Shown here: piece after piece, positions 480 through 63,889 of the stretch
Layout of the letters: every line of letters begins with the position of its first letter
Position numbering within the stretch: position 1 is the first letter of the stretch
NCBI GenBank assembly: GCA_965153285.1
Contig: OZ229121.1
DNA: 64,000 nt
From: Podarcis tiliguerta
Taxonomy: Eukaryota
Reading direction: 5' to 3' (one strand)
Position numbers and translations under genes: made by a program
The notes under the pieces: generated by a model
Told to the model about the DNA's origin: nothing
The model's database searches: none
What the model saw: the letters and a program-made list of their open reading frames with translations, nothing else

Positions 480-664
480 AACTATAGTTCTGGGGGGTGT
501 TACTCTGACTGGCTTTGGCCCTTCCAGGTCATAGACAGAGGTCTCGAGCATCACATGCAACTTGATGGTTTTTGTAAAAAAATAAATCAACGACGCCAAG
601 CATTGAATGTGGGACCTTCTGTATGCACAGTCTGTGTTGTACCATTGAGCCTAGGACCCTCCCC
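480..664 (-). mobile_element. Degenerate Squam3-like tRNA-derived SINE
   Basis: Minus strand begins GGGAGGGTCCTAGGCTCAATGGTACAACAC...CAGAAGGTCCCACATTCAAT (decayed A/B boxes); boundaries approximate. Confidence 0.55.
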
Positions 665-2217
665 AAATATGTAAAGCTTCATGAATCTGCATGTAATCTT
701 TGTGCAGGGGTCATGCTAAAATTGCTGCATAGTTCAAATTTTAATACAAGTGCTGCCAAAGCAAACACAAATTCTCAGCACCTTTGTCAGACTAAAGCTC
801 GAAGGGTTCTTAGGAGGAACTGGTGGCAGTTCAAATAGCACCAGCTAATTTAATTCTCCTGTGGAGATATGCTCAGAAACTGGGGGCCGGAATGTCTGCC
901 AGCTCTTCCCTAGCAGCCTGGCTCAGTCACTTTGTAAACAGAAACCCTTCAAATTTTTACTTAGAATTACAGCACAATCCACATAAATACTTGTTGGCTC
1001 CCAACTAGGATAAACGTAATTTGAAACAAGGTCTGTGTGCAACACACACAACTGTCAAACCCAAACTGTTGAATCAAACTTACATTAAAAGTCCATTTAG
1101 CAGTTTCACATCAACTCAGGCTGTATTTAAAGCAGAAGACTGATGTGAGGCTCCAGTAACTTAAATTAAGGAGCAAAATTCCCTAGCCCAAATCTGAAAT
1201 TTGGCTTGAAAACTGTACATAGATGAATAAACTTTCTCACGCATGCACATACACACACATTTTAAAAATGTTAATTGCTAAGCATACATTTCAAACAACA
1301 GCATGCAGCCAAATCATTCTACTTTATCCATTTAGCTGATTGTTAATATTTGCTTTCAGAAAAGCAAATTTTATTTCGAGTCAATGAGAGAAACTGACCT
1401 GGGGCCCAACAGGGAACGCTGGATGGGACTGACTGGGTTGGTGCTGATCAGATGTGCTTGTATCAGACAGTGCTGTGTTTCCTCTGGCTCCTGGAATTCA
1501 AAGAAAAAGCTCTACCTTAATATCTAGCCTGGGGACTAGCACATTACATTTTGCTGTGATGTCACATAGCATCAAGCTGAAAATGATATGCTAAAGCGGT
1601 TTATCAGTAACTCAAGCGCTCAAATCACTTATCAGCTGCATAAATTATGCTAACATTCATTCAGGCCAGCCTACTCACTCGGAGGGAGACACGGAAATCT
1701 GACAGCAGTGAAACTGAAGCCATCATCAACACAGCTAATGTGGATTGCATTATACATCCATTTACATAAAAAAAAAAATCGCACAAGCTCTCTGCAGGGG
1801 AAAGAGCCTTTTTTTTTTAATGCTAAAGTGAGCACCAGCTATCCTAATTTCATAGAGCAAGAATTAACTGGGCCAAAGTAAAGTGACTTCTACTGTTTAT
1901 CTCTGTGAAAGAGTAAAATATCTGTAAAATACCACGGTGCAAACTAGTGGATCCAAGGCAATTGGACTTTGCACAGATGAAGAGTGAGGGCTTGGGGCTA
2001 AGAGTCAGCCTAGGCTCTACAAATTTCACAGAACAAGAGACTAGAGGTACTACTTGAGACTAGAGGTAAAGGGTATTTTAAAATTTGTTTTAATGCTCCT
2101 CCACATAAATGCCCCAACAGGTAGACAATAGAGGAGCATAACAGAAAGAGGGCTAGATTACACTTTCTTACTACATGCAATGTACCATTCATTTGGGGAA
2201 GTGTTTCAATTAAGTTA

Positions 2218-4142: not shown

Positions 4143-5147
4143 TGCCTGTTTATTGCTTCTGGGGCATATGGCAAAGAAGCATCAGGAACACAGGTGCCTG
4201 TGTATTTCAGCAACAATTTTTAGGATTTCTGCCAGACAGTTTGGTGTAGATTTTGTTTTCTGTGGTTTTACTGATGGCTATAGAAATGGAATTCTAACTC
4301 AACCTTAATCAGATCCTCTCATCCCACCCCACGTTTGTCCTATGAATAGCAAGTGCAAGGCAATTCAGAACTATTTTATTGCCACGCCATGGTCTGTGAA
4401 GGGAAAAAAAGGGATCTGATTCTGCCATACTTATAAATTTTAAAGAAGGTATTATCTGCTCATTTAAAACAAATTCTTCTATATATTCTCCAAGGGGACA
4501 GACTTATAAATAATGTAAATGTGGAAGAAATACATCACCACATTAAGGTACAAATAAAACAGACTGCTACATATTATTCAATTGACTTCTATCTCTATAG
4601 CAATGTGTCAATCTTAACAATATTTTATATGGAGATTAAGCAATAAATGCAGAGAATCATTAGGCAGAAACCTGGGAATCTTATTAATTTGTAATTTTAA
4701 AAAAACCACAAAAGGAAGTCAGAGAGGCACATTGGTTTGGGAATACTTACAAGTGTTGTATTGAAATTCTTACATTGATTTAGAACAGGTTAATAATAAA
4801 AGCATGTTGATGTTTCTATAAAATGAACAGAGCCAGCATTGATATCACATTTAATGTTCTTCCTCTCTTTAAAAAAGAAGTTTTTAAATGTATATGAACT
4901 CCAGCAGTTGGCTATTACATTTTTGTTTAGGACGTACAGTCATCAGAACATTAATTTTAAAATAAAACTAGTGCAATTGTACATTACAGTTCAGGAGAAG
5001 GGGAGCACACAGTAACCAAAGAACAAACAGGTAAAGCCAAAATTCCACCCAGGATTAAGGGCAATAGCTTAATAGAGAAAAAAGGCATAGTCTTATTGGT
5101 ATTTGCCACTTAGGAAAAAAAAGTAACACAAAGTAGAAATAGTAATA

Positions 5148-5624
5148 CAGTGGTGCCTCGCAAGACGAAATTAATTCGTTCCGCGAGTTTTTTCGTTGTA
5201 CGAGTTTTTTCGTCTTGCGAAGCACCACTGCATTTAAACACTAACAACGGCGGGGGGGGGGGAGAAGCAGGACAGCTGCCGCAGCCGGTACCTCAGACTC
5301 ACCCGCGCGTTGTGGCCACCGCGCGATGCGGCTGCTGGAGGGCGGCGGGGCTCTCTGAGGGGAGCGCGCGAAGGGGGTGCGCAGCGGCGCGAGGCAGCCG
5401 GAAGGTCGGCCATCAGCCGGAAGGTGGGAGGGAGCCGGAGGAGCGGGGAAGTGAGCGTGCGTGCGTGCAGTGACTGTCGCCATGACACAAGAGGCAGGGC
5501 TGTTTCATCTAGCGAAGCAAGCCCTTAGGAAAATCCGTCTTGCGAAGCACCTCAGAAAACGAAAAACCCTTTCGTCTAGCGAATTTTTCGTCTTCTGAGG
5601 CATTCGTCTTGCGGGGTACCACTG
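5148..5624. mobile_element. Tigger-like MITE with GC-rich interior
   Basis: TIR CAGTGGTGCCTCGCAAGACG / CGTCTTGCGGGGTACCACTG; TA TSD; TTCGTCTTGCGA subterminal repeats; same ends as 23542-23804. Confidence 0.9.
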
Positions 5625-6751: not shown

Positions 6752-7246
6752 TCAAGAAGGACACTGACAAACTGACAAACTGACAAACTGGAACGTGTCC
6801 AGAGGAGGGCAACCAAAATGGTCAAAGGCCTGGAAACGATGCCTTATGAGGAACGGCTAAGGGAGCTGGGCATGTTTAGCCTGGAGAAGAGGAGGTTAAG
6901 GGGTGAGATGATAGCCATGTTCAAATATATAAAAGGATGTCACATAGAGGAGGGAGAAAGGTTGTTTTCTGCTGCTCCAGAGAAGTGGACACAGAGCAAT
7001 GGATCCAAACTACAAGAAAGAAGATTCCACCTAAACATTAGGAAGAACGTCCTGACAGTAAGAGCTGCTCGACAGTGGAATTTGCTGCCAAGGAGTGTGG
7101 TGGAGTCTCCTTCTTTGGAGGTCTTTAAGCAGAGGCTTGACAACCATATGTCAGGAGTGCTCTGATGGTGTTTCCTGCTTGGCAGGGGGTTGGACTCGAT
7201 GGCCCTTGTGGTCTCTTCCAACTCTATGATTCTATGATTCTATGAT
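6752..7246 (+). mobile_element. CR1 LINE 3' fragment (ORF2 C-terminus, young)
   Basis: ORF 6818-7165 [29 protein letters not shown]; (ATTCTATG)n tail; CTGACAAA triplicated near the 5' junction. Confidence 0.95.
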
Positions 7247-19999: not shown

Positions 20000-21870
20000 C
20001 TGCAAATGAAAAATCCAGGCAAGACTGAGGCACTAGGTGGTTCCCTGGACTGGATGGTTTGTGTTCAACCTTCTTTTGGAAGAGGTGAGTGTCTGCAGTC
20101 TGGCGCTTCGTCTGGATCCACTGTTGTCACTGGAGGCACAAGTGTCCTCAGTGTCATGGAGTGCCTCCTACCAGCTTCCACTGGTGGGATCCTAGCTAGA
20201 CAGGGGCAGCCTCCTTCAGCAGTCCATGCGGTGGTAACCTCTAGTTAGAGTACTGCAGTGTGCTATATGTAGGGCCTTTGAAGACAGCTTGCACACCCTC
20301 CAAGTGTCCTGATTTTCCAGGGATGGTCCTAGAATTATGAAAGCCGGCTTCTGATTTGATTTCGTAGAATCATAGAATCATAGAGTTGGAAGAGACCACA
20401 AGGGCCATCGAGTCCAACCCCCTGCCAAGCAGGAAACACCATCAGAGCACTCCTGACATATGGTTGTCAAGCCTCTGCTTAAAGACCTCCAAAGAAGGAG
20501 ACTCCACCACACTCCTTGGCAGCAAATTCCACTGTCGAACAGCTCTTACTGTCAGGAAGTTCTTCCTAATGTTTAGGTGGAATCTTCTTTCTTGTAGTTT
20601 GGATCCATTGCTCCGTGTCCGCTTCTCTGGAGCAGCAGAAAACAACCTTTCTCCCTCCTCTATGTGACATCCTTTTATATATTTGAACATGGCTGTCATA
20701 TCACCCCTTAACCTCCTCTTCTCCAGGCTAAACATGCCCAGCTCCCTTAGCCGTTCCTCATAAGGCATCGTTTCCAGGCCTTTGACCATTTTGGTTGCCC
20801 TCCTCTGGACACGTTCCAGTTTGTCAGTGTCCTTCTTGAACTGTGGTGCCCAGAACTGGACACAGTACTCCAGGTGAGGTCTGACCAGAGCAGAATACAG
20901 TGGCACTATAACTTCCCTTGATCTAGATGCTATACTCCTATTGATGCAGCCCAGAATTGCATTGGCTTTTTTAGCTGCCGCGTCACACTGTTGGCTCACG
21001 TCAAGTTTGTGGTCAACCAAGACTCCTAGATCCTTTTCACATGTACTGCTCTCAAGCCAGGTGTCACCCATCTTCTATTTGTGCCTCTCATTTTTTTTGC
21101 CCAAGTGCAATACTTTACATTTCTCCCTGTTAAAATTCATCTTGTTTGTTTTGGCCCAGTTCTCTAATCTGTCAAGGTCGTTTTGAAGTGTGATCCTGTC
21201 CTCTGGGGTGTTAGCCACCCCTCCCAGTTTGGTATTTGGTGATTTGATCCCAGAGTCCCCATTTCCCCCACCGGTGCTGCCTCTGCTGAGCTCAGAGAGG
21301 AGGAAGAGCTGGTACTTGTCCCGAGCGATAGATGCGGTGGCAGCTGTGAGGGACCATCTTGTTGCCAGATATTATACTGATTCTGGCCTGAATTAGTTTC
21401 CAGGCTCAATTTAAATTGCTGGTTATAAGGCTTTATGTTGCTCAGGACCCCAATCCCTCAAGGACCGTCTCTCTTCTCATGAACCAGCCGCGACCCTCCA
21501 GACTCCGTCTGAGGCCCTTCTCAGTGTGCCTTGTCCAAGGGAGGTGGGGAAGAGAACTACACAAGGCAGCCTTTTCCAGTGGTGGCTCCTCAGCTTTGGG
21601 GAGACCCTGGAAACATGCCTGGTGCCACCACTGTCGGCTTTTAGGTGCCAGGCAAAGGCATTTTTATTTACCAAGGTTTTTGGTGCACATGTTAGCCTCT
21701 ACTAGTGCGCTCATCTTTTAGTCGTGTGGAACAAGACTTGCCCTTCTTATTGAATGATCATTTTTAGGCCTTTTTGTGTGTGCATAATTTGGCTTTTAGC
21801 TGTTCGTATTGTAAGTACTTTGAGGCATTTATTTTATGTATACAGCGACTAATAAATTCAATAACTGGTG
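20000..21870 (+). mobile_element. Old L2 3' region interrupted by a MITE remnant and a CR1
   Basis: Degenerate L2 motifs at 20000-20290 (AVHAVVTSS*STAV) and 21330-21870 (AQFKLLV; AFSSGGSSAL); AT-rich tail near 21850-21880. Confidence 0.6.
20365..21233 (-). mobile_element. CR1 LINE 3' fragment (young)
   Basis: Open 209-aa ORF2 C-terminus ([12 protein letters not shown]...[17 protein letters not shown]); (ATTCTATG)n tail; TGATTTGAT at 20352-20360 and 21240-21248. Confidence 0.96.
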
Positions 21871-38420: not shown

Positions 38421-39272
38421 CCCCATTGCCTCCCCTTGGCACCAAGGAGAATAAAGGGCTGGGGAAAATATCCGCCTGAAATCTTGAAAAGCCCCTGCCA
38501 GTAATAGGCTAGATGGGTGAATGGTCTGCCTCAGTATAAAGCAGCAAAGCAGATAGATTCATAGGAATCCTGAAATTCAGTTGGCAAAACACAACTGCTT
38601 TAGATGGTTGTCGTTCACAACACAGAAACGTCTCTTGTACTTAACACATCCTCACTGAAGTCCACAGCAATATTCAGTGTAATTTCAGTGTAATTCAATG
38701 CACACGGAAACAAAAATTGAACCAAGAGACAAAGAAAAGGGAAGGTATCCATTATTCCTCTAAGGTAAGGTGCCATAAAGTTCAGGGTCTTGTTTTACTT
38801 GATTTAAAGCTCTGCTGCCTTTAAAGCAGCATGTCGGACACCCAGAGGTGGCTGCATGCCACTCTTAATTAAGATGGTCTGGAGGTGGGCATACATTAGG
38901 AGATTCTGGCCAGTGGGCTGCTGGGTGCAGCTGCCTAAAGCTCTCGCCCACACAAGCCCCTTTTTCTAGCACTCGGCTTATCAATTTACTTGCAAATGGC
39001 TCTCTGAAGTATTAACCCAGGTTAATTATTCGTCAAATATGATTATGCAGTCGTAATGTAAAAAATCGGAAATGTAGGATGGAATTTTTCACTCCAACGG
39101 TTTGGCAATTGTGGCAGCTGGTGGAGTCGCTGGAGTAATTACCAGCCCATTCCAGTCGGTGGATCAGCCTCCTGGTTCAGCGAGGGGAGGGGAAGGAGTG
39201 GCAGGGAGGTGGAGGAGAGAGAGAGAAGGAAAAAGCAATAAAGAACCAAGGGAGCGGGAATATGAGCCTTGC

Positions 39273-39476
39273 CAATCGACACGGNNNNNNNNNNNNNNNN
39301 NNNNNNNNNNNNNNNNNNNNNNNNNNNNNNNNNNNNNNNNNNNNNNNNNNNNNNNNNNNNNNNNNNNNNNNNNNNNNNNNNNNNNNNNNNNNNNNNNNNN
39401 NNNNNNNNNNNNNNNNNNNNNNNNNNNNNNNNNNNNNNNNNNNNNNNNNNNNNNNNNNNNNNNNGTTCACCTGCAT
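39273..39476 (-). other. Candidate 204-nt exon of the unidentified host gene, interior unresolved
   Basis: Strong acceptor TTGTTACTGTGTCTTTTCAG/ATGCAGGTGAAC; possible GC donor ATTG/GCAAGG; length divisible by 3 if the gap size is exact. Confidence 0.5.
39285..39464. other. 180-N gap or masked block
   Basis: Run of 180 N. Confidence 1.
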
Positions 39477-40572
39477 CTGAAAAGACACAGTAACAATGCT
39501 TCGGGCTCAGCTTGGCAGCAGGTGGTAGCAGTGGAAGCCGAAATTCCTTCTGTAATGCAAACTAAATAAAATCCCAAGTGCTGCCATTTAATTAAATGGG
39601 TGCTTTTTGTGTTTTAAATACAATTTCCTTTCTCTTTCACTCCACCCTGGACCCCACAGTTCACCAAACTTGAGAATTACAATTTTCACACCTTTGAAAA
39701 AGGAAAACAACACCAAAGGTGCCACTGGAAACTTAAAAGCATTTTGGGCACAATGCTTCTACGAGTAAGGTCGTTCGTGCAAGCCCCATATATGAGAGCT
39801 AAGCAGTAGCACAGGGGTATTTCCATACACTTCCAATTAATTTCAGTAGGGCAGGAGATTCTCCCTCTCCAGCAGTTTGAGTTCTCTCTGAGTTTTAAAT
39901 GCTTCCAGCAATGATTTAAAGAAAATGGTTTCAATATAGTCTTAAAACATTTGATCCCAAATAAAAAGTTTTTGTGAAGTTGGTGTTTTAAAATACACAC
40001 CTCCATAACATTTCAGGAAAGCAGATTTTCTTTCCGGTACTGTGCAGCTGAGAAGAGTGAAATTTGTGGTACAGCCTGTTCCGTTTGTGTGCGCGCGATG
40101 GGAGGGGGCAATGATTTCTCCCTCCATGTCAGAGGAATTCATACAGGCACCGAGAGCCAGATTGTGACCTTCCTCATGAACATGGGAAGGGAGCTGATCA
40201 CCTGAGACAATGAGGCTGCAAGTCCTGTGAGTAATTGCTCAATAGTAGGAGAAATAGGTTGATGATCCAGACTAAAAAGAGACCGTGTAACCAGGGCCTG
40301 CTGAAAAACCTGCCTTTGCCGAACAATAGACTCTCCAAGCTCCATTGAGAAGGGTATTTTTCCCCATCTTCAGAACAAAATGGCCTCATTCCATCAGGTC
40401 ACCTACTTCTTTTCTAAACTGACATATCCTACTTTGCTCAATTAAGAAGCCATTAGTTATCAACTCCTCTGTTAATTGTATGTTGTGTAAGTTTTATTTT
40501 TAACTCAGGGTTGCATACAAAAACAGAGACCTTCACTGTAGTTCAAAACATTATATGTGTGGACACCTCACA

Positions 40573-58650: not shown

Positions 58651-59324
58651 GTTTTTATGAAGCATCTTCAAAGAGACACCATTTTTAAAAGTGTTTTAAT
58701 AAAAAATACAATTCTAAGGGGAAATTCTATTCCTAGATGTATTCTGGATGCATTTCCTTCTCTCCAAGGGTTACACTAATCAATTGTAATCCTGATGTAA
58801 TTAATCATTTATTCGTTCAATTAACTAGCTTCAAGGAGATGAACTCTACCGGTATGTAATTGTGAAACTGGACTGGTAAGATGTTCAGTTCATAAACGGG
58901 AGTATAATGGGAAAGAGGCAATGCAAATGAAAATTCATAAGCAAAAGAGTGCAGTGAAAGTGCCTGCTTGGTCTCAAGTGGCAGGCAGTTCCAAAGTGCC
59001 TGTGAGGTGGTGGGACTGAGGGAAGGGCTTCCCATGAAGATCTCAGAGTCCAGACAGGTTTCTATGTGGGAATACCATCTTTCAGATAGCTTGGACCTAA
59101 GCCAAATAGGGCTTTATAACCAGCACTTTGTGCCCAGAAGCAGATGGTTAGCCCATGGAACTGTTATGTAGCAAGGCAGCTGTTATGGATGCTCCCTATA
59201 CCAGCCCCAGTCAACAATCTGGCAGCAGTTCTTTGAGCCAGTTGAAGTTTCCGAGCACTTTTTCAAAGAAAGCCCCACACAGAGCACACTACAGTAATCC
59301 AAACGGGATGTAACTAAGGTGTGT

Positions 59325-63399: not shown

Positions 63400-63889
63400 T
63401 GTTATGTACTGAGTTGAATAGGATCCAAACTGCAGCAGTCTGATTGGTCCTAGAACAATAGGGTCCAAAAGGCAGCAGTCTGATTGGTCCTAGAACAATA
63501 GGATCCAAAAGGCAGCAGTCTGATTTGTCCTAGAACAATAGGATCCAAAAGGCAGCAGTCTGATTGGTCCTAGAACAATAGGATCCAAAAGGCAGCAGTC
63601 TGATTGGTCCTAGAACAATAGGATTCAGAATGCAGCAGTCTGATTGGTCCTAGAACAATGCAGCAGTATGATTGGTTGGCAGGAACCACCCAATCATGCT
63701 CCAGATAGAAGTGAATCCACAACCTGATTGGCTTACAGTAGAATTCCGGAATTAGCCAATCATGTGCAGCCCATTGTGTAAATAATGTATATAAGGCAGA
63801 TACTTTGAGGGGACTTTCATTCATTCCTCCTCACCACTATGAGCTGAATAAAGAGCATGAAATCACTTTGAGACTCTGAGCATATTTCA
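63400..63889 (+). mobile_element. Solo LTR
   Basis: TG...CA termini; 5-bp TSD GCCTG; TATATAA at 63788; AATAAA at 63847. Confidence 0.92.
63421..63660 (+). repeat. 6 x 40-bp tandem array in LTR U3 with CCAAT and SOX motifs
   Basis: Unit GGATCCAAAAGGCAGCAGTCTGATTGGTCCTAGAACAATA. Confidence 0.95.

What the first reader, a model, noticed from the sequence alone, without database searches (positions are those of the whole stretch)
38990..39600. Best host-exon candidate is mostly N and may use a GC donor
Seen: a strong minus-strand acceptor lies 12 nt from one gap edge, and TTG/GCAAGG lies 12 nt from the other, giving 204 nt (phase 0: MQVN...PCRL; phase 1: DAGE...VSI). Flanks have no recognisable repeats, retain CpGs and include a long CT tract and a second donor CTG/GTAATT (boundary 39143). 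That donor could define a longer exon or a 29-nt microexon after GCTGAACCAG (39143-39171). Inference: a conserved, possibly regulated non-canonical splice region; it is the key to naming the gene.
Basis: partly seen in the sequence, partly recalled or inferred. Interest (0 to 1): 0.7.

Follow-up and report, generated by a model that had tools for sequence, protein, structure and literature searches.

The report
POU6F2 intron element, doubtful GC exon
This stretch lies inside a huge intron of the lizard gene for the developmental regulator POU6F2, whose known protein is complete without it, so it is likely an ordinary regulatory element rather than the missing exon, though a rarely used exon cannot be excluded.

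Summary
Neighbouring DNA names the host without the N run: POU6F2, minus strand. Ten visible exons cover a whole 703-aa lizard POU6F2, and the real in-window exon is at 1399-1490. The candidate sits 44 kb into the 82-kb intron 2, which is phase 1, so MQVN...PCRL is excluded. Only the 204-nt GC form keeps frame; the 334-nt and 29-nt forms frameshift. Of 214 POU6F2 proteins holding the exon-2 end, 209 join exon 3 directly and none carries DAGE or VSIG. The GC donor is weak: 378 of 4,022 intron GC sites match U1 as well, and its 9-mer is absent from 500 natural GC donors. The flanks are single-copy, CpG-retaining on one side and rich in TAATTA, as for an intronic regulatory element. Against this, the acceptor is as strong as real ones, and splice motifs this close to both mask edges are rare by chance (0.02-0.3%), so a minor non-coding or decay-inducing exon stays possible. 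Conservation and splicing were not tested.

The parts
1399..1490 (-). POU6F2 coding exon 3 (92 nt, entered in phase 1): the real host exon in this window
   Evidence: Translation matches residues ~94-123 of Lacerta POU6F2 X1 by tblastn; canonical AG/GT; region search returns POU6F2 proteins at 100% identity
1491..64000 (-). In-window part of POU6F2 intron 2 (82,389 nt in all, phase 1; exon 2 at G000:C12:4920051-4919880)
39477..39498 (-). Acceptor-like site (short pyrimidine tract, AG before 39476); no yUnAy branch-point match in 84 nt upstream
   Evidence: Score 6.75 against 4.1-12.4 for seven real POU6F2 acceptors; 35 sites in the intron score as high
39273..39476 (-). Proposed 204-nt exon, 180 nt unreadable; if used it would add 68 codons in frame (D-A-G-E ... 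V-S-I-G); unsupported by any protein seen
39267..39275 (-). Weak GC donor-like 9-mer TTG|GCAAGG
   Evidence: 5 of 9 U1 matches, reached by 378 of 4,022 GC sites in the intron; 58 GC sites score as high by matrix; 0 occurrences in a list of 500 natural human GC donors
39172..39262 (-). Pyrimidine (CT) tract, 84% C+T
39143..39171 (-). Proposed 29-nt microexon ending at the GT donor CTG|GTAATT; the same donor would close a 334-nt exon from 39476; both shift the frame
   Evidence: Donor 8 of 11 U1 matches, like real donors at 7-9; acceptor score 2.0; 334-nt form meets a stop at nt 26 of exon 3
38990..39284 (.). CpG-retaining, single-copy left flank with two of the three TAATTA sites
39584..39599 (.). 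Perfect 16-bp palindrome centred on a homeodomain-type TAATTA core
   Evidence: 23 palindromes of 16 bp or more in 251,938 repeat-free bases of the gene

Best explanation
The stretch lies in the middle of the 82-kb second intron of POU6F2 and is likely a non-coding cis-regulatory element (intronic enhancer), with splice-like motifs that are likely not used in the main mRNA. Shown: host gene, intron position, phase, weak GC site, direct exon 2 to exon 3 joining in the protein record. Inferred: homeodomain or POU factors would bind the TAATTA sites and the palindrome and act on the POU6F2 promoters 45-115 kb away; low germ-line methylation or constraint would explain the kept CpGs.
For: Ten visible exons cover all 703 aa of Lacerta POU6F2 X1 with no room for an insert. 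209 of 214 proteins with the exon-2 end join exon 3 directly, including the Podarcis, Lacerta and Zootoca entries; the other 5 do not start with D; none of 239 holds DAGE, VSIG, MQVN or PCRL. 0 of 48 cluster representatives continue with DAGE. GC donor weak, whereas natural GC donors are on average stronger in the rest of the consensus (PMC3167603). Pseudo-exons are common here: of 35 equally strong acceptors, 10 have a GT and 8 a GC donor of the candidate's strength within 50-350 nt. Flanks: single-copy, in the fifth-longest of 217 repeat-free runs, left flank in the top 1.3% for CpG, TAATTA three times against 0.23 expected, a 16-bp palindrome. Precedent in human: an ultraconserved element in a POU6F2 intron (10.1101/235242), five highly conserved elements near VPS41/POU6F2 (PMC2579482), a CRISPRa-validated POU6F2 enhancer (PMC11893885).
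Against: No direct test of conservation or enhancer activity was obtained. The acceptor faces the host strand, equals real acceptors in score, and the layout of splice motifs at both mask edges is rare by chance (0.018-0.28%). 204 nt keeps the frame and the visible edges have no stop in that frame. Protein collections cannot show non-coding or decay-targeted exons; only 120 of 256 and 120 of 252 hits were listed, dominated by primates and birds. Motif counts are post hoc (six motifs tried; near-octamer sites 2 against 0.98 expected, not enriched). The right flank has ordinary CpG content.
Confidence: 0.5

Rival explanations
1. A minor non-coding or decay-inducing (poison) exon: the 39476 acceptor is used, closed by the GT donor at 39143 (334 nt) or by a donor hidden in the N run; inclusion would shift the frame, put a stop at nt 26 of exon 3 and trigger nonsense-mediated decay, tuning POU6F2 dose. 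It can overlap an enhancer.
For: Good acceptor on the host strand; the 39143 donor pairs U1 like real donors (8 of 11); predicted stop 64 nt before the exon 3-4 junction; such an exon would leave no trace in protein collections; non-random layout at the mask edges; a long CT tract that could bind PTBP1 (recalled preference).
Against: 334 nt is long for a cassette exon in an 82-kb intron (general knowledge); no branch-point match; no RBFOX or QKI motif within 38900-39800; 10 of 35 equal acceptors have such a donor partner by chance; 0 papers hold 'POU6F2' with 'poison exon'.
Confidence: 0.27
2. One reading: a 204-nt in-frame coding cassette with a GC donor that adds 68 residues to the N-terminal region of POU6F2.
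For: Exactly 12 nt on each side; length divisible by three; matches the phase-1 intron; in-frame layout in about 1 of 81,889 mask placements at 12 nt; TTG and GCAAGG each occur in natural GC donors (7 hits for TTG-GCAAG, up to 42 for GCAAGG); GC-AG introns are 0.8% of human coding junctions and can be deeply conserved (PMC7242645).
Against: 0 of 214 and 0 of 48 proteins carry it; the full 9-mer is absent from 500 natural GC donors; 6 of 11 U1 matches against 7-9 for eight real POU6F2 donors; a stronger GT lies 130 nt on.
Confidence: 0.1
3. An internal promoter or short first exon: the CpG-retaining, CT-rich stretch starts a transcript that splices from the 39143 donor to exon 3 and gives an N-terminally shortened POU6F2; or the 29-nt microexon is used.
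For: CpG retention and CT tract just before a fair GT donor; a macaque model (P0206/P0240) shows that another first exon can precede exon 3.
Against: Not a CpG island (GC 48%, CpG o/e 0.65); the only ATG next to the donor is out of frame with exon 3 (sequence); the macaque leader has no match near here (best hit at 59064-59093); microexon acceptor weak and frameshifting.
Confidence: 0.08
4. Neutral intron DNA whose features are all chance.
For: No direct conservation data; each feature alone occurs elsewhere in the gene.
Against: CpG retention, TAATTA excess, palindrome, top CT tract and a 5.2-kb repeat-free run coincide within 700 nt.
Confidence: 0.05

Closest known systems
POU6F2 (RPF-1), POU class 6 homeobox gene
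   Same: Host gene: exon translations match named POU6F2 proteins at 91-100%, Pou domain PF00157 at E 5e-16, ten coding exons, neighbours Yae1_N, Ras and kinase genes on one side and VPS41-like peptides on the other (names RALA, CDK13, VPS41, AMPH recalled).
   Different: The reported alternative splicing concerns two acceptors of the last exon, a 36-aa insert (PMC10436210, passages); the passages seen describe no exon in this intron.
Conserved non-coding elements and enhancers in introns of developmental transcription-factor genes, including POU6F2 (UCE_733; HCE block at VPS41; enhancer at rs7786896)
   Same: Single-copy, repeat-poor, homeodomain-site-bearing intronic DNA in the same gene.
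   Different: Conservation and activity not tested here. The three listed UCEs in this part of human chr7 (UCE_733-735) fall, by exon coordinates that I recall and did not check, just before exon 2, in intron 4 and at the last exon, so none would be this element.
GC-AG alternative cassette exons (U2 type)
   Same: AG acceptor, GC at +1/+2, frame-preserving length.
   Different: Donor lacks the compensating consensus (-2 A, +6 T); no isoform on record in the proteins seen.
Poison (NMD-inducing) cassette exons
   Same: The 334-nt AG-GT form predicts a premature stop over 50 nt before the next junction.
   Different: No transcript evidence and no tested conservation.

Membership tests
POU6F2 locus (host gene) | Exons in order on one strand encoding the full POU6F2 protein with a POU-specific domain | tested here: met
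POU6F2 constitutive coding exon | Peptide present between exons 2 and 3 in orthologous proteins | tested here: not met
   0 of 214 and 0 of 48
GC-AG cassette exon | GC donor with otherwise strong U1 complementarity | tested here: not met
   5 of 9; 9-mer absent from 500 natural sites
GC-AG cassette exon | Usable acceptor on the host strand | tested here: met
   Score 6.75, within the range of real acceptors; motif only, no branch-point match
GC-AG cassette exon | Open frame through the exon | not testable with these tools
   180 of 204 nt are unreadable
GC-AG cassette exon | Spliced reads at both junctions | not testable with these tools
   No RNA data could be laid
Poison exon | Inclusion creates a premature stop over 50 nt before a downstream junction | tested here: met
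   Predicted for the 334-nt form: stop at exon 3 nt 26 of 92
Poison exon | Inclusion seen and raised by NMD inhibition | not testable with these tools
   Needs RNA-seq
Neural microexon | Short, usually frame-preserving exon with a usable acceptor | tested here: not met
   29 nt shifts the frame; acceptor 2.0, rank 340 of 4,503
Conserved non-coding element / enhancer | Single-copy, non-coding, outside repeats | tested here: met
   (visible flanks only)
Conserved non-coding element / enhancer | Sequence conserved across distant vertebrates | not testable with these tools
   G000 has no relatives in the genome tool
Conserved non-coding element / enhancer | Chromatin or reporter activity | not testable with these tools
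   Needs ATAC or reporter data
Ultraconserved element (896-element set) | Listed element in the orthologous human intron | tested here: inconclusive
   UCE_733-735 rows read; their placement outside this intron rests on recalled exon coordinates

The most novel reading that the evidence does not exclude
An unannotated POU6F2 exon works as a splice switch: one acceptor (39476) pairs either with a weak GC donor, adding 68 residues in frame, or with a GT donor 130 nt further on, which shifts the frame and destroys the mRNA, with the CT tract between them deciding the choice and so setting the dose of this retinal and neuroendocrine transcription factor.
Probability: 0.08. Interest if true: 0.55.

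Novelty: new member of a known kind. Interest (0 to 1): 0.2.

Why it matters
If the best reading holds it is one more candidate regulatory element in a developmental gene already known to have them, of use mainly to people studying POU6F2 (retina, cornea, GnRH neurons). If the exon is real, it would give POU6F2 an undescribed dose-control splice event and a non-coding place to look for variants; the coordinates here make that a single RT-PCR from exon 2 to exon 3.

Tried and rejected
No RNA holder listed for the region (six DNA-sized runs of two organisms), which says nothing on expression. Two attempts to lay those runs on the left flank returned no data, so divergence between relatives is unmeasured. 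The visible read-through peptide after the N run (47 aa) found no protein at E <= 10 among 54 candidates (weak evidence). Rfam found nothing at the locus. The CpG-rich patch at 5200-5600 with an apparent donor and Kozak ATG at 4393 was considered as a promoter and rejected: it is bounded by repeated sequence and no POU6F2 exon maps there. The 163-aa plus-strand open frame across the N run has no support and was not pursued. Alternative tails of bat, duck, antbird and sturgeon models give only short, weak hits in intron 2; the one near the locus (8 aa, opposite strand, E 0.11) is treated as chance. No poly(A) hexamer AATAAA follows on the minus strand until 36553, so a terminal exon is not favoured. 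Near-octamer sites are not enriched. Earlier findings: none. Literature searches; none listed a paper on an exon in this intron by title or abstract; subscription papers (including the original RPF-1 description) were not searchable, and bioRxiv supplements and file 1 of PMC3167603 were not seen.

Full report
Observation. The N run is 39285-39464, the only one in the window. On the minus strand an AG precedes 39476 and TTG|GCAAGG follows 39273, each 12 nt from the run, spanning 204 nt; a GT donor follows 39143. With an approximate weight matrix of recalled frequencies the acceptor ranks 28 of 4,503, the GC site 46 of 3,237, the GT site 87 of 3,378 and the microexon acceptor 340 of 4,503. The flanks tested match once each in the 1.46-Gb genome and lie in a 5.2-kb run without self-repeats, fifth longest of 217 in the gene. 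CpG retention holds on the left (9 of 685 tiles reach 10 CpG) and not on the right. In 664 kb only one other N run occurs, of 200 nt.

Host gene. The window is G000:C12:4836001-4900000. Scoring exon candidates in 664 kb around it gave POU6F2 on the minus strand. Its exon-2 translation returns POU6F2 entries, lacertid ones at 95-100%, so the organism is inferred to be a lacertid lizard. Pfam confirms the Pou domain and the Yae1, Ras and kinase neighbours (four of eight peptides had no family or were N-terminal POU6F2 pieces: three had none). tblastn of Lacerta POU6F2 X1 places residues 1-703 on ten exons between 4,990,809 and 4,690,718 with no missing part. Exon 3 lies inside the window at 1490-1399, readable. 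The finding lies in intron 2 (82,389 nt), 44.4 kb after exon 2 and 37.8 kb before exon 3. By PMC10436210 (passages) human numbering is likely one higher.

Frame. Exon 2 ends TTC G|GT and exon 3 starts GA GCC, so the intron is phase 1. An inserted exon must read D-A-G-E; MQVN...PCRL is excluded. The 204-nt form returns to frame; the 334-nt form meets a stop at nt 26 of exon 3; the 29-nt form shifts exon 3 to another frame.

Protein record. Two searches listed 120 of 256 and 120 of 252 hits, and two cluster look-ups added members (15 of 58 listed for the largest cluster). Of 239 proteins, 25 lack the exon-2 end, 209 join exon 3 directly and 5 go elsewhere, none starting with D; none holds DAGE, VSIG, MQVN or PCRL. 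A search of 1.84 billion representatives without length limit gave 48 hits; none continues with DAGE, two start with D but differ after it, and one has PCRL further along a direct exon 2-3 join. The set is rich in primates and birds, longer isoforms of equal score rank lower and may be among the unlisted hits, and non-coding or decay-targeted exons cannot appear.

Splice signals. The GC site has 6 of 11 U1 matches against 7-9 for eight real donors; 378 of 4,022 GC sites in the intron match as well over nine positions. PMC3167603 (passages, section 18 and supplement file 2) says natural GC donors compensate elsewhere in the consensus; its list of 500 holds TTG-GCAAGG 0 times, TTG-GCAAG 7 times and CAG-GCAAGT up to 64 times. 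The acceptor equals real ones (6.75 against 4.1-12.4) but so do 35 sites in the intron, 10 with a GT and 8 with a GC partner in exon range. The result against my reading is the layout: acceptor and donor of this strength within 12, 24 or 40 nt of both edges of a 180-nt mask occur in 0.018%, 0.11% and 0.28% of placements. Thresholds were post hoc and the masking rule is unknown, so I count it only as a reason to keep exon models alive.

Regulatory features. TAATTA occurs three times in 481 visible bases against 0.23 expected, one inside a 16-bp palindrome; near-octamers are not enriched. RPF-1 footprints AT-rich sites such as AATAAGCTTAATT (PMC4139503, passages), so autoregulation is possible but untested. 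Human POU6F2 has an intronic ultraconserved element (10.1101/235242, one passage), nearby highly conserved elements (PMC2579482, one passage; supplement search empty) and a CRISPRa-validated enhancer (PMC11893885, passages). UCE_733-735 (PMC4207606 supplement 3 rows) would lie outside this intron by recalled exon coordinates. PMC10920033, PMC6138899, PMC5704063 (passages) and PMC7242645 (passages) added only context.

Verdict. Shown: POU6F2 intron 2, phase 1, no need for the candidate in the protein, a weak GC site. Inferred: a non-coding regulatory element (0.5). Rivals: minor non-coding or poison exon (0.27), in-frame GC cassette (0.10), internal first exon or microexon (0.08), neutral DNA (0.05). 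Conservation and splicing were not measured. It works like an intronic enhancer of a developmental gene; membership as a conserved element is not established. Interest 0.2.

Noticed in passing
window 663-768 (-): Full-length U6 snRNA-like match (61 bits) inside POU6F2 intron 3; diverged, with no T-run or A-tail right after it; likely a pseudogene.
   Followed up: partly
G000:C12:4780303-4785146 (+) and 4955156-4950633 (-): Two LINE elements with open ORF1-like (361 and 244 aa) and ORF2 (1,248 and 1,258 aa) frames inside POU6F2 introns; likely young L1-type copies (family recalled).
   Followed up: no
window 6776-7165 (+) and 20442-21074 (-): Near-identical reverse-transcriptase fragments of CR1 type (recalled) in opposite orientation.
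   Followed up: no
G000:C12:4678582-4678735 (-): A 154-nt AG-GT candidate with an open frame about 12 kb beyond the last POU6F2 coding exon; chimpanzee models of 732-740 aa exist, so a further 3' exon is possible; not compared.
   Followed up: no
G000:C12:4964751 and 4941551: Other repeat-free 300-bp tiles in POU6F2 intron 1 with 10 CpG and 7-9 TAAT cores, candidates for further regulatory elements.
   Followed up: no
window 63417-63659: Tandem repeat of a 40-nt unit, 6.1 copies, 95% alike.
   Followed up: no
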